Shown: positions 3,916-58,215, numbered from the stretch's first letter. The stretch: 62,894 nucleotides of DNA from a virus (IMGVR_UViG_3300032295_002704:1-62894), one strand, 5' to 3'. Notes: generated by a model from the letters alone, not told the origin. A program made the numbers and translations.

Positions 3916-4363
3916 ACAAGACAAACACATAATTAAAAACTTGTCCTTAAGATTTAAACATAAGTATCCACACTCATACAACGAAGTTGACGACTTAATA
4001 CAAGAATGTTATTTGCAATTTGACTACATTAAAACAAAACACGATGATTCCAAGTCTAATTGGAATAATTTTCTGACAAGTTGCTTGTGGAATCACCTTA
4101 ACAAACTTTGTATGTCAACCAGTTCTCCCCTGTCTTTAAGACCCCAAACTGCCAAAAACGCACTTAAAAAGATGGGGAATGTCTTCAACAGAGAACCTTT
4201 GGCAGAATTGCCCCGGAGTATACCTATTGATACCTTTATTGATCTATCAGAAAAAGAACGGGATCTGTTAAACAAATTTTCGTTTAGAAGAAATGAGAAT
4301 ACTAAGTTAAAAAAGCGTCACAAGAAAATCATAAAGCAAATAAAGGAAAAATTAAGTGAGTAA
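3893..4363 (+). CDS. Sigma70-like factor (region 2, short C-terminus)
   Basis: EVDDLIQECYLQF...HDDSKSNWNNFLTSCLWNHL resembles sigma region 2. Confidence 0.6.
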   Translation: MILTSLSEQDKHIIKNLSLRFKHKYPHSYNEVDDLIQECYLQFDYIKTKHDDSKSNWNNFLTSCLWNHLNKLCMSTSSPLSLRPQTAKNALKKMGNVFNREPLAELPRSIPIDTFIDLSEKERDLLNKFSFRRNENTKLKKRHKKIIKQIKEKLSE

Positions 4364-6032
4364 GCGTAAACCAAACGTTTTGATTGTCGGCGAATATTCT
4401 CAGTTTAATACTGGCTTTGCCACGTATTTCTATTATTTGCTTCCAAAACTATTTAAAACCGACAAATACAATTTAGCGGAATTAGCCGTCTATCTACACC
4501 CAATGCATCCCAAGATGGAAGAAACTCCATGGATGGTTTATCCAAACGAACCTTCTCCAAGGGATCCAGAAGAGGTACATCGGTCATATCAATCAGACCC
4601 AATTAACCAATTTGGTAAATTCCGTTTTAATCAAGTCTGCTTGGATTTTAAGCCAGACATTGTCATTAACATTGCAGACCCTTGGATGGCATCATGGATC
4701 AATGAATCTCCGTACCGTAAATTCTTTCACTACATTCACATGCCAACCGTTGACGGGCAGGTGCAAAAAGCAGAGTGGGTTGAAGACTATGCCAAGTGCG
4801 ACAGCCTTTTCACTTACAGTGAATTCGGTAAGTACACTGTTGAAACCCAAAGTGGTGGCAAAATTAAGGTTTCTGCGGTGGCAAGCCCAGCAGCAGACAC
4901 CACCGTGTTTAAGCCTTCGGAAAACAAAGAACAAGTAAAAGCTGCCCTTGGTTTACCAACCAATTCGGTAATTGTACAAACAGTTATGCGTAATCAACCA
5001 CGCAAACTTTTCCCAGAAATACTAAAAACATTTAACATCTTGCTACGCAAGATGGAAGAAAACGGAGAATCTACAGACAATGTCTATCTGCACTTTCATA
5101 CTAGCAATCCGGATATGGGCTGGGACTTGCCAGCGGAAGTTAAAAACCACGGACTTAGCCACAAAGTATTCTTTACGTACATGTGCGACCACTGCGGGTT
5201 AATCAAGTGTTTCCGCTATCGTCAAGATAAAACCGTATGCCCAGCCTGTGGTAATTCATCACTAAGATTACCGAATACTTCGGCTGGCTGCACCAGAGAG
5301 CAATTAGCCTACATTATGTCGGCTGCTGATGTCTATTTACAGTACAGCATTTGCGAAGGCTTTGGTATGCCCATTGTTGACGCTAAAGCCTGTGGAGTGC
5401 CCACAGTGGTCGTCAACTACTCAGCCATGGCTGAACTCGGTACAGAAGAGTCTGGTGGCTGCCAAGTGCCCCTACTTAAGTTGTGGCAAGAACCGGCGAC
5501 CAACACCAACCAGTTGCGGGCTGTCCCTGACAACGATGCCTGTGCCAATATCTTGTACCGTTTAACAACTGACACTGCGTGGCGGGAATACCTTAGTAAA
5601 AACGCTCGTCAGTGGGCATTAAAGTATTACAATTGGGATAGAACTGCTAACATTTGGGAAAACCACATCGACTCGATTGAAATCGAAGAAAATCCAAAGT
5701 GGTACACCCCGGTTAACCTGTTACAGCCAATGGGTGAAGCACCTCAACAAGTAGATGATCCTGCTCACTTTGTGGGATGGGTATGCCAAAACGTCTTCAA
5801 GAATCCTCAAATGTTTTACTCTAATGAGGTTAAAAATTGGATAACATGGCTCAACCAAGGATTCCTCGTCAATCAAGACCAACACGGACGTAAGTACACT
5901 CAACAATTCGGAATCCGGGAGTTTTGTAATCTTGTTAACAACAGGATTCAACACCACAATCATTATGAAATGTTGCGTCATAACACCATGAATCCTGTTG
6001 AGAGAAAACCAAAGATTGGAGTTACTTTATGA
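4356..6032 (+). CDS. GT-B glycosyltransferase (GT4-like) with zinc-ribbon insertion
   Basis: RNQPRK, YLHFHT, ADVYLQYSICEGFGMPIVDAKACGVP; CDHCG...CPACG insert. Confidence 0.88.
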   Translation: MSKRKPNVLIVGEYSQFNTGFATYFYYLLPKLFKTDKYNLAELAVYLHPMHPKMEETPWMVYPNEPSPRDPEEVHRSYQSDPINQFGKFRFNQVCLDFKPDIVINIADPWMASWINESPYRKFFHYIHMPTVDGQVQKAEWVEDYAKCDSLFTYSEFGKYTVETQSGGKIKVSAVASPAADTTVFKPSENKEQVKAALGLPTNSVIVQTVMRNQPRKLFPEILKTFNILLRKMEENGESTDNVYLHFHTSNPDMGWDLPAEVKNHGLSHKVFFTYMCDHCGLIKCFRYRQDKTVCPACGNSSLRLPNTSAGCTREQLAYIMSAADVYLQYSICEGFGMPIVDAKACGVPTVVVNYSAMAELGTEESGGCQVPLLKLWQEPATNTNQLRAVPDNDACANILYRLTTDTAWREYLSKNARQWALKYYNWDRTANIWENHIDSIEIEENPKWYTPVNLLQPMGEAPQQVDDPAHFVGWVCQNVFKNPQMFYSNEVKNWITWLNQGFLVNQDQHGRKYTQQFGIREFCNLVNNRIQHHNHYEMLRHNTMNPVERKPKIGVTL

Positions 6033-7186
6033 AGACAATCCTATACATAGCCCCCATCTACGACGGTACTGGTTATGCTCACATGGCTAATAGCACAATA
6101 TTGGCTTTGGATGCTGCTGGTTATCACGTAGTGGTTAGACAGGTCAAACTTTGCGGACAAGTCGTACAACCTCCCGACAGAGTCAAGGCTTTGGAACAAC
6201 GGCCTCTGCCAGAGAAAATTGATATCGTGGTACAAAACGTATTGCCACCAATGATGACTCGGTACGAGGGTGCCAAGAATATTGGTTACTTTTATTGCGA
6301 AACCTCAAACTTTAAAGCAAGTAATTGGCAATACTGGCTCAATCTCATGGATGAGGTTTGGGTATGTGCCGGAGGTAATCGCGATGCTTGCATTGAATCC
6401 GGAGTTACCGTCCCGGTAAATGTGGTTCATGCCCCGATTACCAAAGACTTTAAGGGTGTTCCGCCTCTAAACCTTGAAACCAATAAGATTGGGCCAAACA
6501 CGGTAGTGTTCTATAACATTGGTGACTTTTCGTACCGAAAGGGTATGGAAGACCTTATCAAGGTTTACTTGCAGACTTTCAATGAAAATTCAGATGTCCA
6601 CCTTGTACTGAAAACCTACGTCGATTCCGTTTCGCCAGAAGAATCATTCAGGATCATTAAGGACTCTATCGACCGGATTAAGCGAAACATCAGAACAAAC
6701 GTAGATGGTTACTGGCCAGCAATTACCATTATTCCCGGCTATGTTGGTGAAGAAACCATCGACCAGTTACATGTGCTTGGCGACTGTTATGTAAGTATGG
6801 AGCGAGGGGCTGCGTGGAATATTCCATTCTTTGAGGCTCTTAGTTGTGGCAACAGAGCGATTGTTGGCGAGTCACATGGTCCAATGGAAATTACCAGTCT
6901 TAACTTCTACAATGATCACGGAATGACCGAAGTAATTGAAAAAGCCAGTAGCACGCCGGTATTTGGCATGGAAAGATGCTCATATCCGGGTCTATACACC
7001 GGTAATGAAGAGTGGTCGGCTTTCAACGAAACAGACTTTATGAAGCGTATAGATGACGTTTACTACGAAGTTAATGACAACAAACAAAAGGGAGTTCATC
7101 AAAAGTATGTTCATCCATGGTTTAAAGCAAGTTTCCTCATGGAAAATGTTGCAAAGAGAATGCGAGACATTATAGATGCAAAATAA
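6029..7186 (+). CDS. GT-B glycosyltransferase (GT4-like)
   Basis: TGYA, FYNIG...RKG, DCYVSMERGAAWNIPFFEALSCG. Confidence 0.85.
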   Translation: MKTILYIAPIYDGTGYAHMANSTILALDAAGYHVVVRQVKLCGQVVQPPDRVKALEQRPLPEKIDIVVQNVLPPMMTRYEGAKNIGYFYCETSNFKASNWQYWLNLMDEVWVCAGGNRDACIESGVTVPVNVVHAPITKDFKGVPPLNLETNKIGPNTVVFYNIGDFSYRKGMEDLIKVYLQTFNENSDVHLVLKTYVDSVSPEESFRIIKDSIDRIKRNIRTNVDGYWPAITIIPGYVGEETIDQLHVLGDCYVSMERGAAWNIPFFEALSCGNRAIVGESHGPMEITSLNFYNDHGMTEVIEKASSTPVFGMERCSYPGLYTGNEEWSAFNETDFMKRIDDVYYEVNDNKQKGVHQKYVHPWFKASFLMENVAKRMRDIIDAK

Positions 7187-8171
7187 ACTATCTGCTATTC
7201 TAAATAGAATTGGCATTAAAGATCGTAAGTTACGTGTTCTTACTATGCCAACACACGAGGGTTACCAGTCCCTCTTGGATAAAACCGGCCATACTTTTTA
7301 CATGTTGACTGGTCCCCAAATTAAGGGATGGGATCATCATACTAGGGTATTACCACCTAATCACTTTCTATTACCACATGACTCCAAAAACGGCAACTGC
7401 CTAATGCCACCTTCATTTGATTTGGTGTTGTGTCAAAATAGGCAATACTTTGATCTGATGAATAGAATTGCCAATGATTTTGGCGTACCTATTCTAACAT
7501 TAGATCACACAGAACCGCCACCCAACATGAAACCTTCACAAAGAGAGGGTTGGATGAATGCCCGTGCCAGCACCGCTGTCTACATTACAAATCATAATCG
7601 CATTACCTGTGGTGGTAAAGATACTGACATAGTCATTCCACACGGCATCGACACCGATATTTTTAACGGTTACACCGGCGAAAACAAAGAAGTCATTTCT
7701 GTGGTAAACCACTACAAGGCAAGAGAAGTATTCTGTGGATATTCAATTTGGGAGAAAATAACTAAGTTAGGTGTTCCTACGAAAGTTGTTGGCGACAACC
7801 CCGGCTGGACACAATCGATCAACAATTCTGTAGAGTTAGCCCAAACTCTTGCACGGGCAAGAGTGTATCTCAACACTAGTTTGTACTCGCCAGTCCCTCT
7901 TTCGATGTTGGAAGCAATGAGCGTGGGTTTGCCTGTCGTCAGTACTGCCTGTCAGGAAGTACCCAGAATCATCAAGCATGGCGTAAATGGTTATTTGAGC
8001 AACGATCCAGTCGAATTGGCAGAATACTGCACTGCATTACTTAATAATCCGGAGCACGCCAAGTTAATGGGTGAAAATGCTAGAAAGACCATTTTGGAAA
8101 AATTTAGCCTGAATCAGTTTGTTAACAATTGGAACAATGTATTATACCAAACAGTGGAGAATTACCGTTGA
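7176..8171 (+). CDS. GT-B glycosyltransferase (GT4-like)
   Basis: IPHGIDT, YLNTS...PLSMLEAMSVGLPVVST...HGVNGYL. Confidence 0.9.
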   Translation: MQNKLSAILNRIGIKDRKLRVLTMPTHEGYQSLLDKTGHTFYMLTGPQIKGWDHHTRVLPPNHFLLPHDSKNGNCLMPPSFDLVLCQNRQYFDLMNRIANDFGVPILTLDHTEPPPNMKPSQREGWMNARASTAVYITNHNRITCGGKDTDIVIPHGIDTDIFNGYTGENKEVISVVNHYKAREVFCGYSIWEKITKLGVPTKVVGDNPGWTQSINNSVELAQTLARARVYLNTSLYSPVPLSMLEAMSVGLPVVSTACQEVPRIIKHGVNGYLSNDPVELAEYCTALLNNPEHAKLMGENARKTILEKFSLNQFVNNWNNVLYQTVENYR

Positions 8172-8584
8172 AAACCGTTCACTTTGTAAATAAAAACACG
8201 CCTCAAAACGAAAAGTCAAACATTACTTTTTGTACAACTGCCTTGCAATTTGCTAAAGAAGTCGAAAACGCACAGAGCGTACAGTTAGACTATGTCTTAG
8301 AAACTAACTTTGATTGGAAACAAGTTCCCGGATACCTCAAGTTTGTCTTTGACAAGATGGCTCTGGGCGGGGAATTGGTAATTAACTGCGATGACACCGG
8401 CATGTTACTTAACTTGGCTTCAAACCGTCAAGTGGATATTGAAGCACTTAACGGTAGGCTCGTAGGTAAAAAGTGCTATTTGACATTGCCATATCTTCGT
8501 AAGGTTTTGGAAGAGGTTGGTTTTAGACCTGTCAGTTTCACTTATATGCAGAATTGCACAATGTGCATTAAGGTGCAGAAATAA
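8168..8584 (+). CDS. Degenerate class I methyltransferase-like protein
   Basis: LKFVFDKMALGGELVI and LRKVLEEVGF resemble the C-terminal half of Methyltransf_11; no glycine SAM loop; TTG start at 8168 overlaps the upstream stop. Confidence 0.45.
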   Translation: MKTVHFVNKNTPQNEKSNITFCTTALQFAKEVENAQSVQLDYVLETNFDWKQVPGYLKFVFDKMALGGELVINCDDTGMLLNLASNRQVDIEALNGRLVGKKCYLTLPYLRKVLEEVGFRPVSFTYMQNCTMCIKVQK

Positions 8585-9282
8585 TGTTTATTACCGCAAT
8601 TATCCCAAATTTTAACCAAGGCAAGTTTATTCACTTCGCTTTGCAAAGTTTGGAAAACCAAACTATCAAGCCAGATGAAATCATTGTTGTCGATGACAAA
8701 TCGACGGATAACTCTGTCGAGTTAATTGAAAAGGCTCTTAAGAATGTGCGGATACCGCATCGTTTTATCAAACGCGAAACGAATGGCTATCCGGCTGCTG
8801 CCAAAAATTCAGCCTTGAAAGTCCTCAATAAAGAAACTGACATTATCGCTTTTTTGGATGCTGACGATTGGTATGAACCTGCCAAGATTGAAGAGTCACT
8901 TAAAATTTTCACTGGTTACCCCGAAATAGGACTTGTCTACAGTGACTACTACATGGTTGACAAAACCGGTCAACGCAAGTTAGAACCTAAATTCGCGTAC
9001 AATGTCCAACACCTGTGGCAGCAATGTATTGTAAGTACGAACTCGCTCGTCAAAGCAAGCGTGATTGAGCAAGTAGGTCTTTTTGACGAAAGAAAAGACT
9101 ACAAAGGTGTCTTTGAAGACTACAACCTTTGGCTGAGAATTAGCAAAAGATTCCCCATGTATCACATCGCAAAACCCCTGTTTACCTACAGAGTACACGG
9201 GGAAAACATTACGCTACGAGAAGGTCAAAATATGATTCCTCGTTTGCCCGAACTTATTAAGGAGACTTATCTTCATGGATAA
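8584..9282 (+). CDS. GT-A glycosyltransferase family 2
   Basis: IIPNFNQ, VDDKSTD, AFLDADD, EDYNLWLR, YRVHGEN. Confidence 0.92.
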   Translation: MFITAIIPNFNQGKFIHFALQSLENQTIKPDEIIVVDDKSTDNSVELIEKALKNVRIPHRFIKRETNGYPAAAKNSALKVLNKETDIIAFLDADDWYEPAKIEESLKIFTGYPEIGLVYSDYYMVDKTGQRKLEPKFAYNVQHLWQQCIVSTNSLVKASVIEQVGLFDERKDYKGVFEDYNLWLRISKRFPMYHIAKPLFTYRVHGENITLREGQNMIPRLPELIKETYLHG

Positions 9283-9829
9283 TCTACAACATGCCCCGGC
9301 AACGGTAAATGCGGGTAGTCACAACGTATATGGTGCTTTTGGCAATCCGCAAAGCCTTTATTTCGTTTTGCAACGCATTAATCAATCGCAGATCGCCCAT
9401 AATTTAATGCACAAAGCCCAAACATGGCGGAAAAGTGACATCAGCATATATTCTGTAGGAAATGAATTACCTTTTATTCCTAACACGAATTTAGCAATTT
9501 ATCCGGCTTCTTCGATTAACACCCACCTTACCGGCACACTGATTGCCACCTGTCCAGAAACTTTAAAACTCGTCCATGAAGCTGTAACCCCTGCTACAAA
9601 GGCGTTTTACATGTACGATGTGGCGTGGATGAACTTTGCCGAGAATAATTGGCTCATTGACCTAGTGAGTGATATAATTCCGCACATGCACTGTGTCATG
9701 TTTAGAAGTTATGAGCATGCCCAGTTTGCTACCAACAAGCTAAAATGCACTGGATATACATATACTTCTGTTGGAGATTTCAATCTCTCAATAATGCACG
9801 ATTTTATCTATAGAGGAAAAAATGGCTAA
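9275..9829 (+). CDS. Hypothetical protein (possible degenerate GT-B half domain)
   Basis: 184 aa within the glycan cluster; LIAT...KAFYMYD pattern. Confidence 0.45.
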   Translation: MDNLQHAPATVNAGSHNVYGAFGNPQSLYFVLQRINQSQIAHNLMHKAQTWRKSDISIYSVGNELPFIPNTNLAIYPASSINTHLTGTLIATCPETLKLVHEAVTPATKAFYMYDVAWMNFAENNWLIDLVSDIIPHMHCVMFRSYEHAQFATNKLKCTGYTYTSVGDFNLSIMHDFIYRGKNG

Positions 9830-10553
9830 GAAACCAAAAGAACCGGCAGCACCAATCGAATTACCTCCGGCAAATGACATCAAAACTGCAATTCCGACAG
9901 AAGAGCAGATTATGGCTTTACTCGATCCTAAAAAGGAATTGCAGGAGGGAAGACCAACTGCCAACGGGCTTCGTCGTGTAATCAAGTATTACACTTCGTT
10001 TGATATCGTCGGTACAGAAGTTAACGTGGTGCAGTCACCCAATCCCGAAAATAGAAATAGAACCACTGTAACGTGCAAGATAAGTTACATTGACAGAAAT
10101 AACAATCCTGAATTTGTTAGAACATTGCAGGATGCTGCTGACTGTAACTATGAAAACACCAAGGCTCCTTTTAACAAATTCCCAACGGCTACCGCTTCTA
10201 CAATGGCAGAAGGTCGTTGCTACCGTAAGTTGCTGAATCTCAACACTATTACTGCCGAAGAAAGTATCGATCAAGATCCGCAAATTCTTAAGCAAATAGA
10301 AGATGAAGAAAACTCTGTAAAGTCAGCAAATGACAACCAGATAACCACTATTAAGAACATGTGTGCTAAGTTTAAGATCCATCCACACAAGATTCTGGAA
10401 GTCTTTGAAAAGACCGAAGTGCCAGAAGACCTCAAACAGTGGAACGCTAAATGGGCACATGACACAATCCAGTACCTTTGGAAATTCAACAGAAACACTA
10501 AGCCGGGCGATAAAGACTACTTGGCAATTCCAGACGAAATAAAAATCAAATGA
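9822..10553 (+). CDS. Rad52/Sak-like single-strand annealing protein
   Basis: GLRR...TVTCKISY...DAAD...ATASTMAEGRCYRKLLNL...AEE core plus helical C-terminal domain. Confidence 0.6.
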   Translation: MAKKPKEPAAPIELPPANDIKTAIPTEEQIMALLDPKKELQEGRPTANGLRRVIKYYTSFDIVGTEVNVVQSPNPENRNRTTVTCKISYIDRNNNPEFVRTLQDAADCNYENTKAPFNKFPTATASTMAEGRCYRKLLNLNTITAEESIDQDPQILKQIEDEENSVKSANDNQITTIKNMCAKFKIHPHKILEVFEKTEVPEDLKQWNAKWAHDTIQYLWKFNRNTKPGDKDYLAIPDEIKIK

Positions 10554-11299
10554 GCCGTAAAGTAATACAATGCACTACACTTGGTAATAATGGCAGGTTC
10601 GGAAACCAGCTTTGGCAATATTGTTTTGCTAAAGCACTTGCTACAAGAAATGGAGCAGAGCTACAAATCCCAGAAGACTGGGTTGGTCGCAAAATCTTCA
10701 ACATAGTAGATGAACCCATCAAGCAATGGTTGCCTCAAACCTCTCTTGACCAAGTATCTATTAATGACGTAAACGTGGATCTTTTTGGCTATTTCCAAGA
10801 TCCGGCGTTTCACACTATTCTAAATGATAAAGATATCCGTTCGTGGCTGACATTTCAGCCTAAATGGTTATCGCTATATGACCACTTTAAACAGGCACCT
10901 TACACGGCACTGCACATGCGAAAGGGTGACTACAAGAACCTACAACACGTTTTCTGCTTGGTCAGTGACGAATCCTACTACAAGGCAGCCGAAGATAACG
11001 GGCACTTTGATCTTAATTTACAAATAATGACGGAAGAAAATCCAACTCCGTGCCAGCATGCAGAAGAAATTGGTGCCGGATTCCTGCCGGATTTCTTCAA
11101 ACTCATGTACGCCACCCATTTATATCGTTCTAATTCCACATTCAGTTGGTGGGCTGGTTACTTGGGTAATAACGATGTATATAGCCCCGTTGTCGATAAC
11201 CTCGTAGGATTACAAACCGTACCCTTCGTGAAGGGTAATCACCCAAAGATATTTGCTGGTCACTCTGGCGATATTTACATTAAAGGATACAATTCTTGA
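10550..11299 (+). CDS. GT11 alpha-1,2-fucosyltransferase-like protein
   Basis: GRFGNQLWQY, GYFQ, LHMRKGDY, SNSTFSWWAGYL hallmark motifs. Confidence 0.9.
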   Translation: MSRKVIQCTTLGNNGRFGNQLWQYCFAKALATRNGAELQIPEDWVGRKIFNIVDEPIKQWLPQTSLDQVSINDVNVDLFGYFQDPAFHTILNDKDIRSWLTFQPKWLSLYDHFKQAPYTALHMRKGDYKNLQHVFCLVSDESYYKAAEDNGHFDLNLQIMTEENPTPCQHAEEIGAGFLPDFFKLMYATHLYRSNSTFSWWAGYLGNNDVYSPVVDNLVGLQTVPFVKGNHPKIFAGHSGDIYIKGYNS

Positions 11300-12087
11300 A
11301 AACTTCTATTGCTGATAAAACTCCGTATGCTTATGCTGCTTTTGAAGCAGCCCTTTCTGATGAGGCATTTGCCAATTTTAAACAAAACCCTCATTACCAA
11401 CAAGTGTTGGAACACATGTCCAAAGAGGATGGACAGAAAATCCTTGATTACATTGCGGGATTAGGAAATCCCATAGTAAATTCATGGATTAATAAATTAT
11501 CGCAAAATCTGCATATTAATGACCAGTTTGGATCACCTACTTTAGTTTCGTATGACAAGGGTTACCATTTTAAGAGGGTTTCTCCCTCAACCCTGCGATA
11601 TCTCAAGGTCATGATTGATTTGGAAACAATGGGTCTACTGCACAGTGGCTATAAAATCGTCGAAATCGGTGGTGGCTACGGTGGACAGGCCACTGTGCTT
11701 TGGGATTGGAATAACTCTTTAGAATTCACGATGATTGATCTTAAAGAAGCGGTTGCTTTGCAACGCAAATACTTACGTAACACGATTCCCAACGCCAAAG
11801 TAGATTATATCAGTCCGAAAGAAACAGAGTTTCTGCGGGAATCAAAGTTTGATCTAGTCATTAGCAACTACGCTTTCAGCGAATGTACCCGTGAAATTCA
11901 AATTCAATACATCCAAGATGTAATTAAGAACTGCAAGCACGGCTATATTACTTGGAATTTCATCAGCGAACAGCATGGTGTAAATAGCATTTCCATAGAT
12001 GAATTTAAGTCTCTGGTACCGTTTAACGTTCAAATTATGGAAGAAAAACCCACAACAAACTTCAATAACAAGATTGTGTGGTGGTGA
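11296..12087 (+). CDS. Putative sugar O-methyltransferase
   Basis: TLRY, IVEIGGGYGG, IDL, DLVISNYAFSEC. Confidence 0.8.
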   Translation: MKTSIADKTPYAYAAFEAALSDEAFANFKQNPHYQQVLEHMSKEDGQKILDYIAGLGNPIVNSWINKLSQNLHINDQFGSPTLVSYDKGYHFKRVSPSTLRYLKVMIDLETMGLLHSGYKIVEIGGGYGGQATVLWDWNNSLEFTMIDLKEAVALQRKYLRNTIPNAKVDYISPKETEFLRESKFDLVISNYAFSECTREIQIQYIQDVIKNCKHGYITWNFISEQHGVNSISIDEFKSLVPFNVQIMEEKPTTNFNNKIVWW

Positions 12088-12089
12088 TT

Positions 12090-12722
12090 ATGAAATTTAC
12101 ATTCGGAATTGTAACAGCAGGTGGTGAAGACCACCGAATCAACCAAATCATTGACTCTATCGAGTCAAATCGAATTCCGGAAGATTCATACGAAATCATC
12201 GTTGTAGGCCCATCAGACGTAAATAGAAGTAACACCAAGGTTTGGAATTTACAATTTGAGCGGTGGGGCTGGATCACCAGAAAAAAGAACATCATTGCTG
12301 AACAAGCTCAATTTGAGAATTTGGTGCTTTTGCACGACTATGTTGCCTTTAAGCACAATTGGTATGATACCATGTGCGAGTTTGGCAACGACTGGGATGT
12401 CTGCATGAACCGTATATTGAATACGGATGGCAAGCGTTTTAGAGATTGGATTAAAGTCAACTCTTTTGAGCCATTTTCCATTGAATTTGCGGACTATAAG
12501 AGTACAGAACACATTCGGGGCACATACGTCAGTGGTACCTACTTTCTCGTAAAGAAACAGTATTTACTTGATAATCCTCTCAACGAGAATCTTTGTTGGG
12601 GTCAGGGCGAAGACGTTGAGTGGTCCAAAAAACTTAACTCCACGTGGAATTATCGCGTAAACCCTAAAAGCGTGGTATACTTTCTTAAAGCTAAGCATCA
12701 CTTTCCAGCGAGTCCAGAATGA
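12090..12722 (+). CDS. GT-A glycosyltransferase (GT2-like)
   Basis: FTFGIVT, EIIVVG, WITRKKN, LLHDY, GEDVEWS. Confidence 0.75.
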   Translation: MKFTFGIVTAGGEDHRINQIIDSIESNRIPEDSYEIIVVGPSDVNRSNTKVWNLQFERWGWITRKKNIIAEQAQFENLVLLHDYVAFKHNWYDTMCEFGNDWDVCMNRILNTDGKRFRDWIKVNSFEPFSIEFADYKSTEHIRGTYVSGTYFLVKKQYLLDNPLNENLCWGQGEDVEWSKKLNSTWNYRVNPKSVVYFLKAKHHFPASPE

Positions 12723-13228
12723 TTTACATTGCACACCGTGGTTTAGTTTCTGGGCCAGACCCAGACATAGAAAACTCTCCGGAGTTGATCGAAAACACCG
12801 TTACCTCTCACGAGGGAGTGTTTATCGAATGCGATATGTGGGTCAAAAACGATAAGTGGTGGCTAGGTCACGACGCACCACAATACCAAGTTAGTGACAA
12901 GTGGTTTGATACTTATCATCCTTGGTTATTTATTCACGCCAAAAACCAGTATTGTGTTCAAAAGTTAACGCTACAGAAAAGCAGCATTTGTTGGTTTTTT
13001 CACGACAAAGAGGCTTTTACTTGGACAAGTAAGGGGCACTTGTGGCAATTCCCACACAATCCTGCCTCACAGGTGATTATTAATCAACCCGAATTGGCTA
13101 TCAAGTTACAAACTAAAACTGAGGAACAAATTAAATACGACATTAGCATGTTAAATAACAAACTTCCGTTTAGGGGTGTATGTTCAAAATACATCAATAT
13201 ATTGCAGAATGTGTATGGTGATGAATGA
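12719..13228 (+). CDS. GDPD-like phosphodiesterase (PLC-like TIM barrel)
   Basis: IAHRG...EN...IECD...LGHD...HAKN. Confidence 0.75.
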   Translation: MIYIAHRGLVSGPDPDIENSPELIENTVTSHEGVFIECDMWVKNDKWWLGHDAPQYQVSDKWFDTYHPWLFIHAKNQYCVQKLTLQKSSICWFFHDKEAFTWTSKGHLWQFPHNPASQVIINQPELAIKLQTKTEEQIKYDISMLNNKLPFRGVCSKYINILQNVYGDE

Positions 13229-13830
13229 TTGACTGCGTTTTATTCGACATGGATGGGGTTTTGGTAGATGCTTGCGAGTGGCACCGCAAAGCCCTCAATA
13301 AAGCTCTTGTGCAACATGGCTATCCAGAGATAAGTCTTTCAGATCATTATCACAAGTACAATGGTCTACCCACTAGAGTTAAATTAAAACTCATGGGGAT
13401 AGATGACTCAGTTGCTACAGAAATCGAAACAGATAAACAGCTTTGCACCCTACTGCTGATAGCAGAAGAATGTCGTCCGCAACAAAATGTCACTGATACG
13501 TTAAAGTATCTCAAAAGTTTAAACATTAAAACTGGTTGTGTGACGAATTCGGTCCCAAAAACAGCTCACCCAATTTTAGGAAGGTCTGGTTTACTTCCAT
13601 ATTTAGATGTCGTTATTACGAATACAGACGTTAAGTATAATAAACCAAGTCCAGATTGTTATTTACTAGCGTGTCAAAAACTAAAAGTTAATCCCAGCAA
13701 CACTCTTGTAGTGGAAGACTCACCCAAAGGAATACAAGCCGGAATAGACTCTGGTTGTAAAGTAAGAGTGCTGTTCAGTATAGAAGATTTAACACCTGAA
13801 TTTATTCAGCAAGAATTGGAGAAATATTGA
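13225..13830 (+). CDS. HAD-superfamily phosphatase
   Basis: FDMDGVL, VTNS, KPSPD, VEDSPKG. Confidence 0.92.
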   Translation: MIDCVLFDMDGVLVDACEWHRKALNKALVQHGYPEISLSDHYHKYNGLPTRVKLKLMGIDDSVATEIETDKQLCTLLLIAEECRPQQNVTDTLKYLKSLNIKTGCVTNSVPKTAHPILGRSGLLPYLDVVITNTDVKYNKPSPDCYLLACQKLKVNPSNTLVVEDSPKGIQAGIDSGCKVRVLFSIEDLTPEFIQQELEKY

Positions 13831-14489
13831 TTACTTTTGAACAAATTGAAAAAGCAGTAGCAGAGGCAAACCTAGGATTTCACCTAGTACGCGATTACCA
13901 CGGTAATTTTGGGATGAGTAACCATATGCATCCTTTGTCAATTTTACCTGCCGAAGCAAAGGTCATCCACGAGGAAATCATTCGTGTTAACGCAAAGCGA
14001 GGCTATGAAATCGCAACCGCCTTCGGTGTGTCAACCGCCGTGATTGGTCATGCTTTGAAACAAAATGGCGGGAAACTAGTTAGTATGGATGCCTACATTG
14101 AAGAACACGTAAACAACTGTTCTAACTACGATGTGAACACTCGCCAAAGTTTTGAAAACGCCGATGGTTATCGCTGTGCCCGTGCTTTACTGCAAAACTT
14201 TGGTCTAGATAACGTCACGTTGGAGGTAGGATGGTCACCTACAGATGTACCTCGGGCACTAGACGGTCAACGATTAGACTTGGTTTTTATTGACGGTGGT
14301 CACACCCAAGAACAAATTACTCTAGATACACAAAGCGTAATACCATATCTAAATCCCGAAAAACACATTATCTTTTACCATGATAGTCACTGTAATGGGC
14401 CAGATATTCACGAGTTTTGGTCAAGCAAAGGTTACAAACATAACGTTTACGGAACAGTTTACAATCTAATTAGCTATGAAAAAATATGA
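13827..14489 (+). CDS. Class I SAM methyltransferase (Methyltransf_24-like)
   Basis: EIATAFGVST, DLVFIDGGH, HD motifs. Confidence 0.8.
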   Translation: MITFEQIEKAVAEANLGFHLVRDYHGNFGMSNHMHPLSILPAEAKVIHEEIIRVNAKRGYEIATAFGVSTAVIGHALKQNGGKLVSMDAYIEEHVNNCSNYDVNTRQSFENADGYRCARALLQNFGLDNVTLEVGWSPTDVPRALDGQRLDLVFIDGGHTQEQITLDTQSVIPYLNPEKHIIFYHDSHCNGPDIHEFWSSKGYKHNVYGTVYNLISYEKI

Positions 14490-15177
14490 ACTTATAATTC
14501 CAATGGCAGGTAAAGGACAGCGTTTTATTGATGCTGGCTACACTACGCCAAAGCCGTTTTTACCCATTCGAACTGGCACAAATATAATTGACCGAATTAT
14601 GTTTGAATTCAGAGTCGTCAATAAAGTACACCTAATTACTAGAGAACCATGCACAACGACCATTTGGTCAGAACAAAACAATATTGTCATTAAAGACAAG
14701 CCTCAATACGGTCAGTTACACACCGTTATGGAGGCCATTCCATTTCTACAGAATGACACGGGCGTGATTATCGCTAATTCTGACAATATCGTCGAAGAGG
14801 CAGAATGGGTTGAAAGATGGCTACAGAAGATTGAAAAAGAAAAACCCGATGGTTCTATTTGCTTAATGTGGGGAGAACACCCAAAATGGTCTTATGCTGA
14901 AATCAAAAACAATACCATTGTTAGAACGGCAGAAAAAGACCCCATCAGCGAGCATGCCACCTGTGGATACTATTATTTCAAAAATAAAGAAATATTGACT
15001 AGGGCAGCCGAGACTGCCGTAAAAGACGAAAATAACAAAATAAACGGAGAGTGGTATGTTTGCCCAATTTACAATTCCATTATCAAGCAGGGCGGGGTCG
15101 TGATGCCTTACTGGTTAAACAACTTCGTAGGATTAGGCACGCCAGAAGATTACGAAAGGTACTTGAATGAAGTTTAA
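14476..15177 (+). CDS. Sugar-phosphate nucleotidyltransferase
   Basis: IPMAGKGQRF...PKP, ANSD, EKDPIS, NGEWYV.P.YN, LGTPED. Confidence 0.88.
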   Translation: MKKYELIIPMAGKGQRFIDAGYTTPKPFLPIRTGTNIIDRIMFEFRVVNKVHLITREPCTTTIWSEQNNIVIKDKPQYGQLHTVMEAIPFLQNDTGVIIANSDNIVEEAEWVERWLQKIEKEKPDGSICLMWGEHPKWSYAEIKNNTIVRTAEKDPISEHATCGYYYFKNKEILTRAAETAVKDENNKINGEWYVCPIYNSIIKQGGVVMPYWLNNFVGLGTPEDYERYLNEV

Positions 15178-15577
15178 TGACCTTCAAACTGTTACGGATA
15201 AAAACAAGGGCTATATAACTGGTCAGTTTGAAGGGGTTTTTCACAAAGCCCCTTTTGAAGTAGCCGTTAAAAAGTACAAAAAGGGAGAATACAACTCCTG
15301 TCACTGCCACTCATATACAAATGAAATTAATGTAATTCTACAAGGTAAGGCGATGATGCGGTGCGACAATGACAAGTCATCGGTGATTCTGTTCTCCGGA
15401 GATATCCTAAAAGTCGAAAAGAATGAGTGGTTTGACTTTATGGCTTTAGAAGATACAACGGTGTTGGTAATTAAAGATACCGCCATTGGTGAGAAATACA
15501 CGAAAGACTCCAAATATTCCGAAGAAACTGTGAAATATTTGAAGCACTTGGGCATAGATGTTGATAAGATAGTGTAA
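15167..15577 (+). CDS. Cupin-fold protein
   Basis: HCH...EINVILQG...GDIL cupin motifs. Confidence 0.78.
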   Translation: MKFNDLQTVTDKNKGYITGQFEGVFHKAPFEVAVKKYKKGEYNSCHCHSYTNEINVILQGKAMMRCDNDKSSVILFSGDILKVEKNEWFDFMALEDTTVLVIKDTAIGEKYTKDSKYSEETVKYLKHLGIDVDKIV

Positions 15578-15604
15578 TAGTGGCACAGCCACAGGAGATT
15601 TGAA

Positions 15605-16276
15605 ATGGGTCAAAAGATTAGTTTTTGGAAGCAGACAGCGGATAACAAGGGTGCGGCAGCACTGTTCAATACTACCCCAGAGGGTTATACCTTCGTGAGA
15701 ATGATGCCTCAGACGGGTGAAAAGTCATTTGACTTTAACTCAAGCGTCAATGTCTCGCTTGGTGAATTTGATATGGGTAGTATGCTTGCTGTACTTAAGC
15801 AGAAGGTTCGTGGTCTTGGTAAGTACAACGAGGACAAGAAGCAGTTCGGTGGTCTTGTTCACAATCCAAATGATGGCGTTTATAGTTTCATCAATATGAG
15901 TTGGATTGATGATACCCGTCTTGTTTTTGGCTTGTCATTCTCTGATAAGGGTCAGGGGATTAATCGTCAGTACCGAATTGGCCTAACTGACGGTGAACAG
16001 GAAGCTCTGATCGTTTTCCTTGAAGAAGCGGTCAAGATGCGTTTTGTTGCCAATCTGAACGCGGAAAACGAGCGGAGAAACAATAATGCCAACGGCGGTG
16101 GCAATGACGGTGGTGGACAGGCTGCCCCGAAACGAGCAGCCCCAGCAGCCACGCCAGCCCCGGCTGCAAACACGGTGCCTAAGCGTCCTACAGTAGGTGC
16201 TAATGCTGCTAAGACAGTCAGCAAGCCACGAGTTGAAACTGTCCAACAGGAAGATGACGAAAACGTCCCGATCTAA
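15605..16276 (+). CDS. Whirly-like ssDNA-binding protein with acidic SSB-type tail
   Basis: KGAAAL (cf. Whirly KGKAAL), FDF...VSLGEFDMGSML, VHNP, IGLTDGEQEAL; Gly/Pro/Ala linker; EDDENVPI C-terminus; AGGAG SD. Confidence 0.6.
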   Translation: MGQKISFWKQTADNKGAAALFNTTPEGYTFVRMMPQTGEKSFDFNSSVNVSLGEFDMGSMLAVLKQKVRGLGKYNEDKKQFGGLVHNPNDGVYSFINMSWIDDTRLVFGLSFSDKGQGINRQYRIGLTDGEQEALIVFLEEAVKMRFVANLNAENERRNNNANGGGNDGGGQAAPKRAAPAATPAPAANTVPKRPTVGANAAKTVSKPRVETVQQEDDENVPI

Positions 16277-16283
16277 CGAATTG

Positions 16284-16312
16284 AAAACCGGGGAAACCCG
16301 GTTTTTTATTTT
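16284..16312 (+). terminator. Rho-independent terminator after the SSB gene
   Basis: AAAACCGGG-GAAA-CCCGGTTTT followed by TTATTTT. Confidence 0.85.
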
Positions 16313-51657: not shown

Positions 51658-51946
51658 TCACGATTTTGTAGAGCATCTGTTCAAAATCTTTTTCTTTGCC
51701 AGTAATCGCCTTGTGATGTTGCTTGCATAGGCATATGCCATTGGCCGTGTCATATCGCAAATGAGATTTGTCGGCAAATCTTTTGATATGATGGACTTCG
51801 ATATCATCCTTTGATCCGCAGTTTGGCCACTGGCAAGTTTTTCCGTCTCTTAGCTGAACCGCCCCCATCCAAGCGACATATCTAGGAGAACTTCTGTCTT
51901 GTTTATTAAGTAAGTGTTTATTTATGATTCGCGGTATAAAAGTCAT
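51623..51946 (-). CDS. HNH endonuclease
   Basis: RDG..CQ..CG...HHI...NGICLC..HH. Confidence 0.88.
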   Translation of the reverse strand: MTFIPRIINKHLLNKQDRSSPRYVAWMGAVQLRDGKTCQWPNCGSKDDIEVHHIKRFADKSHLRYDTANGICLCKQHHKAITGKEKDFEQMLYKIVIENNAKQNKDK

Positions 51947-58205: not shown

Positions 58206-58215
58206 TTATGAATCC

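What the first reader, a model, noticed from the sequence alone, without database searches (positions are those of the whole stretch)
4356..15577. 11-kb multi-step glycan assembly cluster inside the replication arm
Seen: translationally coupled run of three GT4-like, two GT2-like and one GT11 glycosyltransferase, two intact and one degenerate methyltransferase, and sugar-nucleotide enzymes. No flippase, polymerase or lipid-carrier transferase is evident, and the GTs look soluble. Inference: six transferases are more than simple DNA glucosylation needs, and the absence of export genes argues against host O-antigen conversion. A cytoplasmic acceptor is favoured: virion protein, or a complex DNA hypermodification.
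Basis: partly seen in the sequence, partly recalled or inferred. Interest (0 to 1): 0.75.

Follow-up and report, generated by a model that had tools for sequence, protein, structure and literature searches.

The report
Phage sugar-chain assembly gene cluster
An uncultured freshwater phage carries about a dozen soluble enzymes that make, methylate and join sugars; hundreds of related phages share the core of this set, which probably coats the virus particle, although the target has not been shown.

Summary
The observation largely holds. Window 4356-15577 is a run of 15 overlapping + strand genes. Five are glycosyltransferases supported by family searches (three GT4, one GT2, one GT11). A sixth is probably a GT-A enzyme. 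There are also two sugar O-methyltransferase-like genes, a HAD enzyme, a sugar nucleotidyltransferase and a cupin. No degenerate methyltransferase was found, and one gene in the run (9822-10553) is a Rad52/Red-beta-like recombinase.

The first three GT4 genes sit directly behind the split DnaE polymerase in every related locus examined (80 kept of 288 IMG/VR relatives). A GDP-mannose 4,6-dehydratase lies just before the terminase gene in the window and in four near-complete relatives. The rest of the sugar gene set varies widely: 5 kb here, about 28 kb in a 143-kb relative.

No encoded protein is membrane-bound. The window and near-complete relatives lack a flippase, a priming transferase, a ThyA-type base hydroxylase and a C5 DNA methylase.

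Best reading (0.4): a self-contained cytoplasmic pathway that puts a methylated deoxyhexose glycan on virion proteins. Remodelling of the host envelope (0.25) and DNA modification (0.1) remain open. This is a new variant of a known kind; the acceptor is unproven.

The parts
4356..6032 (+). GT4 glycosyltransferase of 558 aa ('GT558'), with a 4-Cys zinc-ribbon insert and an extra C-terminal helical domain. It is the lineage-wide anchor gene.
   Evidence: Pfam Glycos_transf_1 1.2e-10; phrog_2170 2.8e-25. Model pLDDT 92. VIA Z 32.0 to 2jjm and Z 31.9 to the chlorovirus NY2A GT 3oy2. E334 and E342 are invariant; C277 is invariant and C280, C295 and C298 nearly so. 288 IMG/VR relatives.
6029..7186 (+). 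Second GT4-like glycosyltransferase (385 aa), conserved across the lineage.
   Evidence: phrog_2170 1.7e-7. Pfam only 3.7e-3, below the cut-off. Its orthologue cluster is present in 76 of 80 loci, and the representative scores Pfam 2.1e-15. dN/dS 0.055.
7176..8171 (+). Third GT4 glycosyltransferase (331 aa), conserved across the lineage.
   Evidence: Pfam Glycos_transf_1 9.5e-18. Cluster 21 occurs in 25 loci and the homologous cluster 15 in 43 loci; hhalign probability 98.9, E 2.9e-17.
8129..8584 (+). Unknown 151-aa protein.
   Evidence: No family hit. 97% identical in L122; dN/dS 0.034.
8584..9282 (+). GT2 (GT-A) glycosyltransferase. Together with the next gene it forms a swapped allelic cassette.
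   Evidence: Pfam Glycos_transf_2 4.3e-25. DAD motif at residue 92. Only 69% aa identity to L122 where neighbouring genes are 95-100%, with dS saturated. Both alleles are seen in lake metagenome contigs.
9275..9829 (+). Unknown 184-aa protein that diverges together with the GT2.
   Evidence: No family hit. 75.5% identity to L122; dS 1.6; dN/dS 0.11.
9822..10553 (+). Rad52/Red-beta-like single-strand annealing protein. It is a recombination gene, not a sugar gene.
   Evidence: Model pLDDT 76. Residues 17-143 match RAD52 8tkq at Z 7.3 and Sak 8pq8 at Z 6.7. Residues 164-230 match the Red-beta C-terminal domain 8tfu at Z 7.4, rmsd 2.5, 67 aa. Present in 63 of 80 loci. 100% identical in L122.
10550..11299 (+). 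GT11-family (fucosyltransferase-type) glycosyltransferase.
   Evidence: Pfam Glyco_transf_11, 28.8 bits against a cut-off of 23.9; phrog_2644 5e-17. H122, R124, G126, D127 and Y128 are invariant. 147 homologues, many carrying PF01531.
11296..12087 (+). Sugar O-methyltransferase-like enzyme (class I SAM methyltransferase).
   Evidence: NCBIfam TIGR04371, 65.1 bits against a cut-off of 44. Pfam MTS and Methyltransf_25 at about 1e-5.
12078..12722 (+). Probable GT-A fold glycosyltransferase (214 aa).
   Evidence: No HMM hit. ESM Atlas nearest clusters score 0.99 (viral, one named a glycosyltransferase) and 0.97 (Glycos_transf_2 in 99% of members; Glyco_transf_7C in 79%). dN/dS 0.055.
12719..13228 (+). 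Virus-only family of unknown function (169 aa), possibly GDPD-like.
   Evidence: phrog_34507 3.6e-21. ESM Atlas hits are viral clusters at 0.96; the nearest cluster with a Pfam family is GDPD (25% of members) at 0.88. N-terminal 'IAHRG'; its reading as a GDPD motif is recalled.
13225..13830 (+). HAD-superfamily enzyme of the beta-phosphoglucomutase family: a sugar-phosphate mutase or phosphatase.
   Evidence: Pfam HAD_2 3.1e-31. TIGR02009 4.2e-29, below its cut-off. Some homologues of the neighbouring NTP transferase are fused to a HAD domain (P0046, P0048, P0086, P0110).
13827..14489 (+). Methyltransf_24 class I methyltransferase (O-methyltransferase type).
   Evidence: Pfam 4e-14. dN/dS 0.018.
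14476..15177 (+). Sugar-1-phosphate nucleotidyltransferase.
   Evidence: Pfam NTP_transf_3 7.7e-8 and NTP_transferase 1.6e-5. phrog_3980 6.2e-41. PDB 4evw 2e-15.
15167..15577 (+). Small cupin: candidate sugar isomerase or epimerase.
   Evidence: Cupin_2 1.9e-5, below the cut-off. phrog_24762 3.7e-18. Only 5 homologues were found, none named.
15605..16276 (+). Probable ssDNA-binding protein with an SSB-like acidic tail. It is the last gene before the terminator-like hairpin.
   Evidence: C-terminus ...EDDENVPI follows a Gly/Ala/Pro-rich linker. Weak Whirly hit, E 0.012. Terminator-like hairpin with a 10-bp stem at 16283-16306.
51943..52977 (-). GDP-mannose 4,6-dehydratase (GMD), in the head and packaging operon just upstream of the terminase gene.
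   Evidence: Pfam GDP_Man_Dehyd 2.9e-104. TIGR01472 1.7e-105, 353 bits, below its cut-off of 415. The order sigma-like, HTH, GMD, HNH, ERCC4, TerL is shared with G006, G001, G003 and G005.

Best explanation
The cluster is the phage's own cytoplasmic glycosylation pathway.

Proposed steps:
- A HAD mutase or phosphatase, a nucleotidyltransferase, a cupin, and the GDP-mannose 4,6-dehydratase encoded beside the terminase gene supply activated sugars, including a GDP-6-deoxyhexose.
- Three conserved soluble GT4 enzymes start a glycan on a soluble acceptor.
- A GT2, a GT11 (fucosyl-type) enzyme and a probable GT-A enzyme extend it.
- Two O-methyltransferases cap its sugars.

The most likely acceptor is one or more virion structural proteins. 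That would give the particle a strain-variable sugar coat, as in chloroviruses and glycosylated mycobacteriophages.

Shown here: the enzyme families, their solubility, purifying selection, conservation of the three GT4 genes and of GMD across the lineage, and the absence of membrane assembly genes and base-hydroxylation genes.

Inferred: the order of the steps, the identity of the sugars, and the acceptor.
For: - Enzyme families.
- No TM-like segment in any of the 15 proteins.
- No Bac_transf and no Polysacc_synt (Wzx) in the window or in G001, G003, G006 and G010, with positive controls. No ORF with more than 4 TM-like segments in G006 or G007.
- GMD is fixed between a sigma-like gene and HNH-ERCC4-TerL-portal-MCP in the window, G006, G001, G003 and G005, although TerL is only 35-37% identical. 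Sugar-nucleotide supply is therefore placed inside the virion assembly operon.
- The three GT4 genes are lineage-wide: GT558 in 80 of 80 loci, the second in 76 of 80, the third in 68 of 80.
- The rest of the sugar gene set is hypervariable. Genes 10550-15577 have no tblastn match in the 80 loci. G006 has a glycan block of about 28 kb with Kdo, dTDP-sugar, GT29-like and C-methyltransferase genes.
- Within the species, the GT2 plus 184-aa cassette is an allelic swap (69-75% aa identity against 95-100% for neighbours, dS saturated). Both alleles are seen in lake metagenome contigs. This is the pattern expected of an exposed glycan.
- GT558's best structural matches, tied, include the chlorovirus NY2A glycosyltransferase 3oy2 (Z 31.9, rmsd 2.7, 375 aa).
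- Base-hydroxylation routes are absent in relatives.
Against: - No acceptor was identified. The window's capsid and tail-tube proteins have no Ser/Thr-rich C-terminal tail of the kind glycosylated in mycobacteriophages, and no structural protein has a striking acceptor tract.
- The GT genes lie in the replication operon, between polymerase, annealing protein, SSB-like protein and ligase, not among the structural genes.
- Many of GT558's tied best structural matches (BshA, MshA, sucrose-phosphate synthase, GlgM) act on small soluble molecules rather than proteins.
- Peripheral GTs could equally act on host lipid-linked intermediates.
- G010 is complete and has the three GT4 genes but no GMD.
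- No phage reductase or epimerase follows GMD in the window, G001, G003 or G005.
- Only 39% of this genome is available.
- There is no protein or glycan chemistry for any member of the lineage.
Confidence: 0.4

Rival explanations
1. Host-envelope remodelling. The soluble GTs act at the inner face of the membrane on the host's own lipid-linked LPS, O-antigen, EPS or cell-wall intermediates. The host's flippase, polymerase and ligase then export the altered glycan. This changes the infected cell's surface, for example to block superinfection or to stop progeny being trapped on debris.
For: The nearest curated families are envelope-glycan enzymes, although all are far below their cut-offs: EpsE, WaaB-type, TuaG, WcaA, PglI. 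GT4, GT2 and GT11 enzymes of such pathways are typically peripheral and lack TM helices (established knowledge; WaaG, PglA and PimA are among the structural matches). The phage seems to meet a polysaccharide-coated host: 57096-58205 looks like a beta-helix protein. The distal block resembles accessory metabolic cassettes and is specific to the window.
Against: No priming transferase, flippase or polytopic membrane protein occurs in the window or in near-complete relatives, even in G006, which has more than 25 sugar genes. The three GT4 genes are fixed in a core operon of every related locus, which is unusual for host-specific accessory genes. GMD is fixed in the head operon. The GT558 family was found only on 9 MAG contigs from unrelated phyla, and in no isolate genome, among 185,579 species genomes.
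Confidence: 0.25
2. DNA hypermodification. The GTs build an oligosaccharide on a modified base of the phage DNA during or after replication, protecting it from host nucleases.
For: The GT genes are embedded in the replication and recombination operon: split DnaE, exonuclease, annealing protein, SSB-like protein and ligase. GMD lies next to the terminase gene, and late pre-packaging DNA glycosylation is known (abstract of PMC13326640). Phage DNA glycans of up to three sugars, some made with HAD-like and nucleotidyltransferase helpers, are known (passages of 10.1101/2023.12.21.572611).
Against: All known routes need a hydroxylated pyrimidine made by a ThyA homologue or by a C5-MT plus TET pair. 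PF00303 is found in 0 of 7 relatives that are at least 95% complete; the one hit, in G007, passes the thymidylate synthase equivalog (247.8 bits against 108.35). PF00145 is found in 0 of 5 records with working controls. The GTs are mostly acidic to neutral: pI 5.5-6.6 for five and 8.15 for one, with a GT558 family median of 6.36. T4 beta-GT is not among the top 50 structural matches. O-methylated and fucosyl-type sugars are not mentioned in the parts that I read. The TET/JBP search was uninformative because its control was silent. 61% of this genome is unseen.
Confidence: 0.1
3. A free cytoplasmic product. The pathway makes a soluble methylated oligo- or polysaccharide, or a glycosylated small molecule, inside the infected cell. 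This would be comparable to mycobacterial polymethylated polysaccharides or to a compatible solute, and is not attached to virion, DNA or envelope.
For: GT558's closest structural and sequence matches include enzymes with small soluble acceptors: BshA, MshA, sucrose-phosphate synthase, GlgM, and the methylmannose-polysaccharide mannosyltransferase 7qsg. The pathway combines soluble GT4 enzymes, O-methyltransferases and a GDP-mannose branch.
Against: I know of no phage precedent (recalled; not searched specifically). The hypervariable gene content and the allelic GT2 swap are hard to explain for an internal metabolite. Placement of GMD in the head operon points to the virion.
Confidence: 0.1

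Closest known systems
Chlorovirus (PBCV-1 / NY-2A) capsid glycosylation machinery
   Same: Both have virus-encoded soluble glycosyltransferases working in the cytoplasm, a virus-encoded GDP-mannose 4,6-dehydratase, sugar O-methyltransferases, fucosyl-type transfer, and no membrane assembly genes. GT558's tied best structural match is the NY-2A glycosyltransferase 3oy2 (Z 31.9, rmsd 2.7, 375 aa). Details of the PBCV-1 enzymes are recalled, not taken from any call.
   Different: This is a tailed bacteriophage, not a eukaryotic giant virus. Sequence identity to 3oy2 is only 12-13%. The GT genes sit in the replication operon. No glycosylated capsid protein is known here. The GTs are single-domain rather than multi-domain.
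Virion O-glycosylation of mycobacteriophages (Che8, Corndog, Myrna; Freeman et al. 2023)
   Same: Both are phage-encoded GT sets thought or shown to decorate capsid and tail tube. This is known to me from a passage in PMC12619734 and from recall. The original paper is not held.
   Different: There, glycans sit on C-terminal extensions of the capsid and tube subunits. The window's capsid and tube proteins lack such tails. Here the set is much larger (6 GTs plus sugar-nucleotide enzymes) and is anchored to the polymerase operon. The lineage is aquatic and uncultured.
Phage DNA glycosylation clusters (T4 alpha/beta-GT; RB69/DLP3 arabinosyl-5hoC; C5-MT/5mYOX-linked GT clusters)
   Same: Both have several phage GTs plus sugar-nucleotide helper enzymes, located among DNA metabolism genes.
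   Different: The defining base-hydroxylating enzyme (a ThyA homologue, or C5-MT plus TET) is missing from near-complete relatives and from the window. GT558 is a classical GT4, not beta-GT-like, within the top 50 matches.
Prophage O-antigen conversion (Gtr and Wzy-type systems)
   Same: Both are phage-borne glycosyltransferases that could alter surface glycans. The GT2 has weak PHROG hits to GtrB-like families (1e-8).
   Different: No GtrA-type, Gtr-type or Wzy-type polytopic membrane protein is present. No integrase was seen in the window. The phage is a large, probably lytic siphovirus.
'Moraphages' (PMC12619734), large aquatic phages with four core GT orthogroups
   Same: Both are uncultured aquatic large phages in which several GTs belong to the core genome, with function unknown.
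   Different: Moraphages are PolB-encoding contractile-tailed phages without a recognised tape measure. This lineage has a split DnaE and a 1842-aa tape measure.

Membership tests
CAZy GT4 / Pfam Glycos_transf_1 (for 4356-6032) | GT-B fold of two Rossmann-like domains | tested here: met
   AlphaFold model pLDDT 92.2. VIA Z 32.0 to 2jjm, 31.9 to 3oy2 and 31.6 to 3mbo over about 350-375 residues.
CAZy GT4 / Pfam Glycos_transf_1 (for 4356-6032) | C-terminal E-x7-E nucleotide-sugar motif, and a family HMM score above the curated cut-off | tested here: met
   E334 and E342 are invariant in 66 sequences within 'CEGFGMPQVEA'. Pfam score 41.6 bits against a cut-off of 26.4. That E-x7-E marks GT4 is recalled.
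GT11 (alpha-1,2-fucosyltransferase family) for 10550-11299 | Family HMM score above the cut-off, and the conserved H-x-R-(R/K)-G-D-(Y/F) donor-binding motif | tested here: met
   28.8 bits against a cut-off of 23.9. H122, R124, G126, D127 and Y128 are invariant in 11 sequences. The meaning of the motif is recalled.
GT11 (alpha-1,2-fucosyltransferase family) for 10550-11299 | Use of GDP-L-fucose, which needs GMD plus a GDP-fucose synthase | tested here: inconclusive
   GMD is present. No second SDR gene occurs in the window. The host, or the unseen 61% of the genome, could supply it. The donor sugar cannot be read from sequence.
Phage DNA glycosylation systems | Enzyme that puts a hydroxyl on a pyrimidine: a ThyA homologue (hmC, hmU or 5hoC synthase) | tested here: not met
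   PF00303 six-frame search: 0 of 7 relatives at least 95% complete (G001-G006, G010). G007's hit is a canonical ThyA. Controls were positive. None among the window's ORFs of 90 aa or more. The window is only 39% of its genome.
Phage DNA glycosylation systems | Alternative route: C5 cytosine methyltransferase plus TET/JBP dioxygenase | tested here: inconclusive
   PF00145: 0 of 5 records with positive controls. PF12851: 0 of 5, but the control rang nowhere.
Phage DNA glycosylation systems | Modified nucleosides in virion DNA | not testable with these tools
   This needs LC-MS of virion DNA.
Mycobacteriophage-type virion glycosylation | Glycan acceptor tails at the C-termini of capsid and tail-tube subunits | tested here: not met
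   The window's MCP (44118-45116) ends ...SRKILVGSI and the tube (39904-40947) ends ...GDPAGLTS. Neither has a Ser/Thr-rich extension. The defining feature is taken from a passage in PMC12619734.
Virus-encoded cytoplasmic virion glycosylation (chlorovirus-like), as a mode of action | Soluble virus-encoded GTs with the virus's own sugar-nucleotide and methylation enzymes, and no membrane assembly genes | tested here: met
Virus-encoded cytoplasmic virion glycosylation (chlorovirus-like), as a mode of action | Glycan covalently bound to a virion protein | not testable with these tools
   No isolate exists. This needs glycoproteomics.
Wzx/Wzy- or Gtr-type surface polysaccharide conversion | Phage-encoded flippase, polymerase, GtrA or priming transferase (polytopic membrane proteins) | tested here: not met
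   PF01943 and PF02397: 0 of 5 records with positive controls. No cluster protein has a TM-like segment. At most 4 TM-like segments in any ORF of G006 or G007.
Rad52/Red-beta superfamily annealing proteins (for 9822-10553) | N-terminal beta-beta-beta-alpha DNA-annealing core plus a Red-beta-type C-terminal three-helix domain | tested here: inconclusive
   Z 7.3 to RAD52, 6.7 to Sak and 6.0 to the Red-beta N-terminal domain for residues 17-143. Z 7.4 and 7.2 to the Red-beta C-terminal domain for residues 164-230. Each Z is in the tool's 'middling' range. Two domains matching the same protein family is what persuades me. There is no HMM hit.

The most novel reading that the evidence does not exclude
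The three GT4 genes, fixed between the DnaE polymerase and the annealing protein in at least 288 uncultured phages, may glycosylate the phage DNA (or a protein packaged with it) by a chemistry that needs no ThyA- or TET-made hydroxyl. That would be a new class of DNA-sugar linkage, with the variable downstream genes diversifying the glycan.
Probability: 0.06. Interest if true: 0.9.

Novelty: new variant of a known kind. Interest (0 to 1): 0.6.

Why it matters
If the best reading holds, a widespread group of uncultured aquatic tailed phages carries a self-contained glycosylation system of the kind so far documented for giant algal viruses and a few actinophages. The group has at least 288 IMG/VR contigs with genomes of 120-230 kb. 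This species recurs in lake metagenomes of 12 studies. The system has three core transferases, a dehydratase wired into the head operon, and a variable 'glycan island' of 5 to 28 kb.

A sugar-coated virion would affect adsorption, stability, grazing and immune or lectin recognition. It could also explain strain-level diversification of these phages.

The cluster offers a defined test bed. Expressing the three core GT4 genes with candidate virion proteins would settle which macromolecule phages of this type glycosylate. Whatever the acceptor, the lineage-wide linkage of GT genes to the replisome operon has, as far as my searches show, not been described.

Tried and rejected
- Megablast of the cluster against isolated phages found no match. 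tblastn of GT558 gave 5 weak hits at 24-28% identity.
- Close relatives of the NTP transferase and of GT11 in IMG/VR: none. The first metagenome scan found none. The second found one locus, L122.
- The 151-kb contig carrying a 65%-identical GT11 (P0124) could not be fetched, so the rest of a closer genome is unseen.
- TET/JBP search: nothing found, but the control was silent, so it is uninformative.
- PDB sequence searches were uninformative. The cupin gave only weak cupin hits. GT11 gave none. The NTP transferase gave one uncharacterised pyrophosphorylase, 4evw.
- An A1 profile hit to 8tzm_A, 'Type I site-specific deoxyribonuclease', for the C-terminal domain (E 4.8e-4) could not be interpreted; the one paper that contains the string '8TZM' is unrelated. 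The C-terminal domain 447-558 was not tested structurally on its own.
- 3893-4363 as a sigma factor is not supported (TIGR02937 E 0.0068; BLASTP against the relatives' sigma E 0.15).
- GT11 against G006's NodZ-like ORF: no similarity.
- 'Degenerate methyltransferase': 12078-12722 against the Methyltransf_24 gene showed no similarity. 9275-9829 against the GT2 showed none.
- Host prediction failed. There is no tRNA. GT558 relatives in species genomes lie on 9 MAG contigs of 8 bins from unrelated phyla.
- No RNA holder was listed among the sequencing runs. In run X8 the stretch 10673-12673 had no cover.
- Promoter-like and terminator-like sites were no more frequent than in shuffles.
- Complex prediction (GT2 with 9275-9829) was never accepted because the queue was full.
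- Moraphages (PMC12619734) were considered as the lineage and rejected, because they are PolB phages with contractile tails.
- Freeman et al. 2023 is not held. Supplementary tables of the papers read were not consulted and may list related contigs.

Full report
WHAT THE RECORD IS. The window is a whole IMG/VR virus record of 62,894 bp. It is linear and CheckV puts it at 39% complete, so about 60% of the genome is unseen. The + strand arm (316-17477) carries replication genes: an RNase T-like exonuclease (660-1343), the C-terminal half of a split DnaE/Pol III alpha (1845-3431) and an ATP-dependent ligase (16530-17477). The - strand carries the tail, head and packaging genes, including a tape measure (32130-37658) and TerL (49082-51193). 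No isolated phage is close. Megablast of the cluster finds nothing, and TerL is at most 26% identical to Bacillus and Microcystis siphoviruses.

CHECK OF THE OBSERVATION. Window 4356-15577 holds 15 + strand ORFs, and all 14 junctions between them overlap by 1-43 nt. The overlapping array actually begins at 316, so the polymerase genes belong to the same tightly packed run (20 of 20 junctions). A terminator-like hairpin with a 10-bp stem follows one gene further on, at 16283-16306.

Family searches support the following:
- GT4 at 4356-6032 (Pfam 1.2e-10; phrog_2170 2.8e-25).
- A weaker GT4 at 6029-7186 (Pfam 3.7e-3, below the cut-off; phrog_2170 1.7e-7; orthologues reach 2e-15).
- GT4 at 7176-8171 (9.5e-18).
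- GT2 at 8584-9282 (4.3e-25).
- GT11 at 10550-11299 (28.8 bits against a cut-off of 23.9; phrog_2644 5e-17; H-x-R-K-G-D-Y invariant in 11 homologues).
- A NanM-type 'putative sugar O-methyltransferase' at 11296-12087 (65 bits against a cut-off of 44).
- A beta-phosphoglucomutase-family HAD at 13225-13830.
- Methyltransf_24 at 13827-14489.
- A sugar nucleotidyltransferase at 14476-15177 (phrog_3980 6e-41).
- A small cupin at 15167-15577.

No HMM finds it, but its nearest ESM-Atlas clusters are viral GT-A/GT2 families (0.97-0.99). No 'degenerate methyltransferase' was found. None of the 15 proteins has a TM-like segment (maximum 19-residue hydropathy 1.34).

A 93%-identical metagenome contig, L122, is colinear with window 4485-16142. 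dN/dS is 0.00-0.13 for 15 of 16 genes, the unknown ones included, so these are real, constrained genes.

There are three points.

First, 9822-10553 is not a sugar gene. Its model (pLDDT 76) matches RAD52, Sak and the Red-beta N-terminal domain with residues 17-143 (Z 7.3, 6.7 and 6.0). It matches the Red-beta C-terminal domain with residues 164-230 (Z 7.4, rmsd 2.5, 67 aa). Each Z is middling. Two domains pointing to one protein family make an annealing protein the best reading. The gene after the cluster (15605-16276) has an SSB-like Gly/Pro-rich linker and an acidic ...EDDENVPI end. The sugar genes are therefore interleaved with replication and recombination genes.

Second, a GDP-mannose 4,6-dehydratase lies at 51943-52977 (-) (Pfam 2.9e-104).

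Third, the cluster is one instance of a lineage-wide feature, described next.

THE LINEAGE. GT558 (4356-6032) has 288 relatives in IMG/VR at 34-41% identity. The 80 loci kept come from contigs of up to 230 kb. Gene clustering of these loci shows a near-invariant order: DnaB, primase, dNMP kinase, PD-(D/E)XK nuclease, DnaE N-half, exonuclease, DnaE C-half, SSB or sigma factor, GT558, second GT4, third GT4, several unknowns, an HNH-like nuclease, the annealing protein, and then convergent structural genes.

- GT558 is matched in 80 of 80 loci.
- The second GT4 is in 76 of 80.
- The third GT4 is in 25 loci (cluster 21) plus 43 loci (cluster 15). The two clusters are homologous (hhalign probability 98.9, E 2.9e-17).
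- Another conserved member, cluster 8, shares the N-terminal G-x-G-x-R...PK-x-L signature with nucleotidyltransferases, but only weakly (hhalign probability 23, E 8.7e-4).

In contrast, genes 10550-15577 of the window have no tblastn match in any of the 80 loci.

G006 (143 kb, 95% complete) is the best near-complete relative I fetched (TerL 37%, MCP 43%, tube 38%, GMD 45% identity). It has a same-strand glycan block of about 28 kb after GT558. That block contains Kdo-8-P synthase-like, CMP-sugar synthetase, GT29-like, RmlA/B/D-like, FdtA-like, C- and O-methyltransferase and aminotransferase genes. More GTs lie elsewhere in the genome. This comes from Pfam on 150 of 177 ORFs of 75 aa or more; 7 ORFs at locus boundaries and the last 20 were not scanned.

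The GT558 family has no close homologue in isolated phages. Among 185,579 species genomes it occurs only on 9 MAG contigs of 8 bins from unrelated phyla, which are most simply mis-binned phage DNA.

GMD IN THE HEAD OPERON. In the window, G006, G001, G003 and G005 the order is sigma-like gene, HTH-like gene, GMD, HNH, ERCC4 nuclease, TerL, portal, and on to MCP. This holds although TerL is only 35-37% identical to the window's. GMD is absent from G010 (complete) and G007 (79% complete). It is the only SDR epimerase-family gene in the window, G001, G003 and G005. The phages therefore supply only the committed step towards GDP-6-deoxyhexoses.

TESTS OF THE THREE ACCEPTOR HYPOTHESES.

(a) Membrane route. 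Bac_transf and Polysacc_synt (Wzx) are absent from the window, G001, G003, G006 and G010, with positive controls. No ORF of G006 or G007 has more than 4 TM-like segments. The phages therefore bring no lipid-carrier or export machinery. Peripheral GTs could still use the host's.

(b) DNA route. The papers I read state that known phage DNA glycans start from a hydroxyl made by a ThyA homologue (hmC, hmU or 5hoC) or by a C5-MT plus TET pair. I read the abstract of PMC13326640 and the abstract and passages of 10.1101/2023.12.21.572611.
- PF00303 is absent from all 7 relatives that are at least 95% complete. The one hit, in G007, passes NCBI's thymidylate synthase equivalog.
- PF00145 is absent from 5 of 5 records.
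- The TET/JBP search was uninformative.
- The GTs are mostly acidic to neutral.
- GT558 is a classical GT4 (Z about 32 to BA1558/BshA, chlorovirus 3oy2, SPS and MshA), with no T4 beta-GT among the top 50 matches.

(c) Virion route. There is no direct evidence. The window's MCP and tube lack the Ser/Thr-rich C-terminal tails used in mycobacteriophages.

Indirect support for a surface-exposed product comes from three observations:
- GMD is placed in the head operon.
- The gene content is hypervariable between relatives.
- Within the species there is an allelic swap. The GT2 and the adjoining 184-aa gene are 69% and 75% identical to L122, while 13 of the 16 compared proteins are at least 95% identical, and dS is saturated there. 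Contigs of three lake runs carry the diverged form of 8588-9643 and one carries the window's form.

The species, or near relatives, is held by 20 runs of 12 studies. Nearly all are freshwater or lake metagenomes, and one may be the source.

MECHANISM PROPOSED. The HAD enzyme and the nucleotidyltransferase activate a hexose phosphate; the two are found fused in some homologues (4 of the 120 listed). The cupin may isomerise or epimerise a sugar. GMD converts GDP-mannose to GDP-4-keto-6-deoxymannose. The host, the unseen part of the genome, or a bifunctional GMD would finish the deoxyhexose; bifunctional GMDs are recalled from the chlorovirus literature. The three core GT4 enzymes lay down the conserved inner part of the glycan on a soluble acceptor. 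The GT2, GT11 and the probable GT-A enzyme add variable outer sugars, and two O-methyltransferases cap them. The families, solubility, conservation and selection are shown. The order of steps, the sugars and the acceptor are inferred.

I put 0.4 on virion proteins, 0.25 on host lipid-linked envelope glycans, 0.1 on DNA, 0.1 on a free cytoplasmic glycan or small molecule, and the rest on something else.

COMPARISON AND NOVELTY. By mode of action the closest known system is chlorovirus capsid glycosylation: soluble viral GTs, a viral GMD, O-methylated deoxyhexoses and fucose. Those details are recalled. The next closest is mycobacteriophage virion glycosylation (passage in PMC12619734; the original paper is not held). 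The present cluster differs from both in four ways: it belongs to an uncultured aquatic siphovirus lineage; its core GTs are fixed to the replisome operon; it has a zinc-ribbon-bearing 558-aa GT4; and it has a variable glycan island of 5 to 28 kb. 'Moraphages' also have core GTs but are PolB myoviruses. Four full-text searches found no description of this lineage or arrangement. Two earlier notes of this scan describe GDP-mannose-derived sugar cassettes with GTs in soil actinophages, also read as virion glycosylation without proof. They are parallel leads, not evidence.

VERDICT. The finding is a new variant of a known kind of system, and its target is still open.

Noticed in passing
window 660-3431 (+); relatives L002-L081: The DnaE polymerase is split, with an RNase T-like exonuclease gene between the halves. 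In relatives the order is N-half, exonuclease, C-half. The window starts after the N-half, so only the exonuclease (660-1343) and the C-half (1845-3431) are present.
   Followed up: partly
window 51623-53237 (-): GMD is flanked by two small HNH endonuclease genes (51623-51946 and 52956-53237). One HNH between GMD and ERCC4/TerL is conserved in G006, G001, G003 and G005.
   Followed up: partly
window 16313-16609 (+): The DUF4326 gene is missing in one lake population. Contigs of run X2 join 16314 to 16602 with 27 other letters between, so it is a dispensable insert between the SSB-like gene and the ligase.
   Followed up: no
window 14611-14701 (+): A 90-nt patch inside the nucleotidyltransferase gene is diverged at the same length in contigs of three runs. 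This matches the lower identity (92.7%) and higher dN/dS (0.13) of this gene against L122.
   Followed up: no
window 54872-59631 (-): Four unannotated Ser/Thr/Asn-rich proteins lie here. 57096-58205 has 4.3 N-x-S/T per 100 aa and repeats that look like a right-handed beta-helix, so it may be a tailspike or depolymerase. This hints at a polysaccharide-coated host.
   Followed up: no
G006 (L099-L106), about 43.4-71.3 kb and 93-106 kb: A 143-kb relative devotes roughly 28 kb plus a second region to sugar genes: Kdo-8-P synthase-like, CMP-sugar synthetase, GT29 sialyltransferase-like, dTDP-sugar enzymes, C-methyltransferase, and two radical SAM/SPASM genes next to GMD. This is an unusually large glycan repertoire for a phage.
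   Followed up: partly
L113-L121 (GTDB MAG contigs): GT558-bearing contigs are binned into MAGs of Alphaproteobacteria, Dehalococcoidia, Balneolaceae, Chitinophagia, Phycisphaerales, Thermoplasmatales, Promethearchaeota (2 contigs) and Gammaproteobacteria. These are probably phage contigs mis-binned into unrelated genomes.
   Followed up: no
window 4356-6032, residues 277-298 and 447-558: GT558 carries a conserved 4-Cys zinc-ribbon insert in its C-terminal Rossmann domain and an extra helical C-terminal domain. The profile of that domain weakly matches PDB chain 8tzm_A ('Type I site-specific deoxyribonuclease', E 4.8e-4). Its meaning is unknown.
   Followed up: partly
window 60209-60886 (-) and 61106-61495 (-): An RlaP-family (RNA repair pathway) nucleotidyltransferase and a YunG-like protein lie at the far end of the record.
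   Followed up: no
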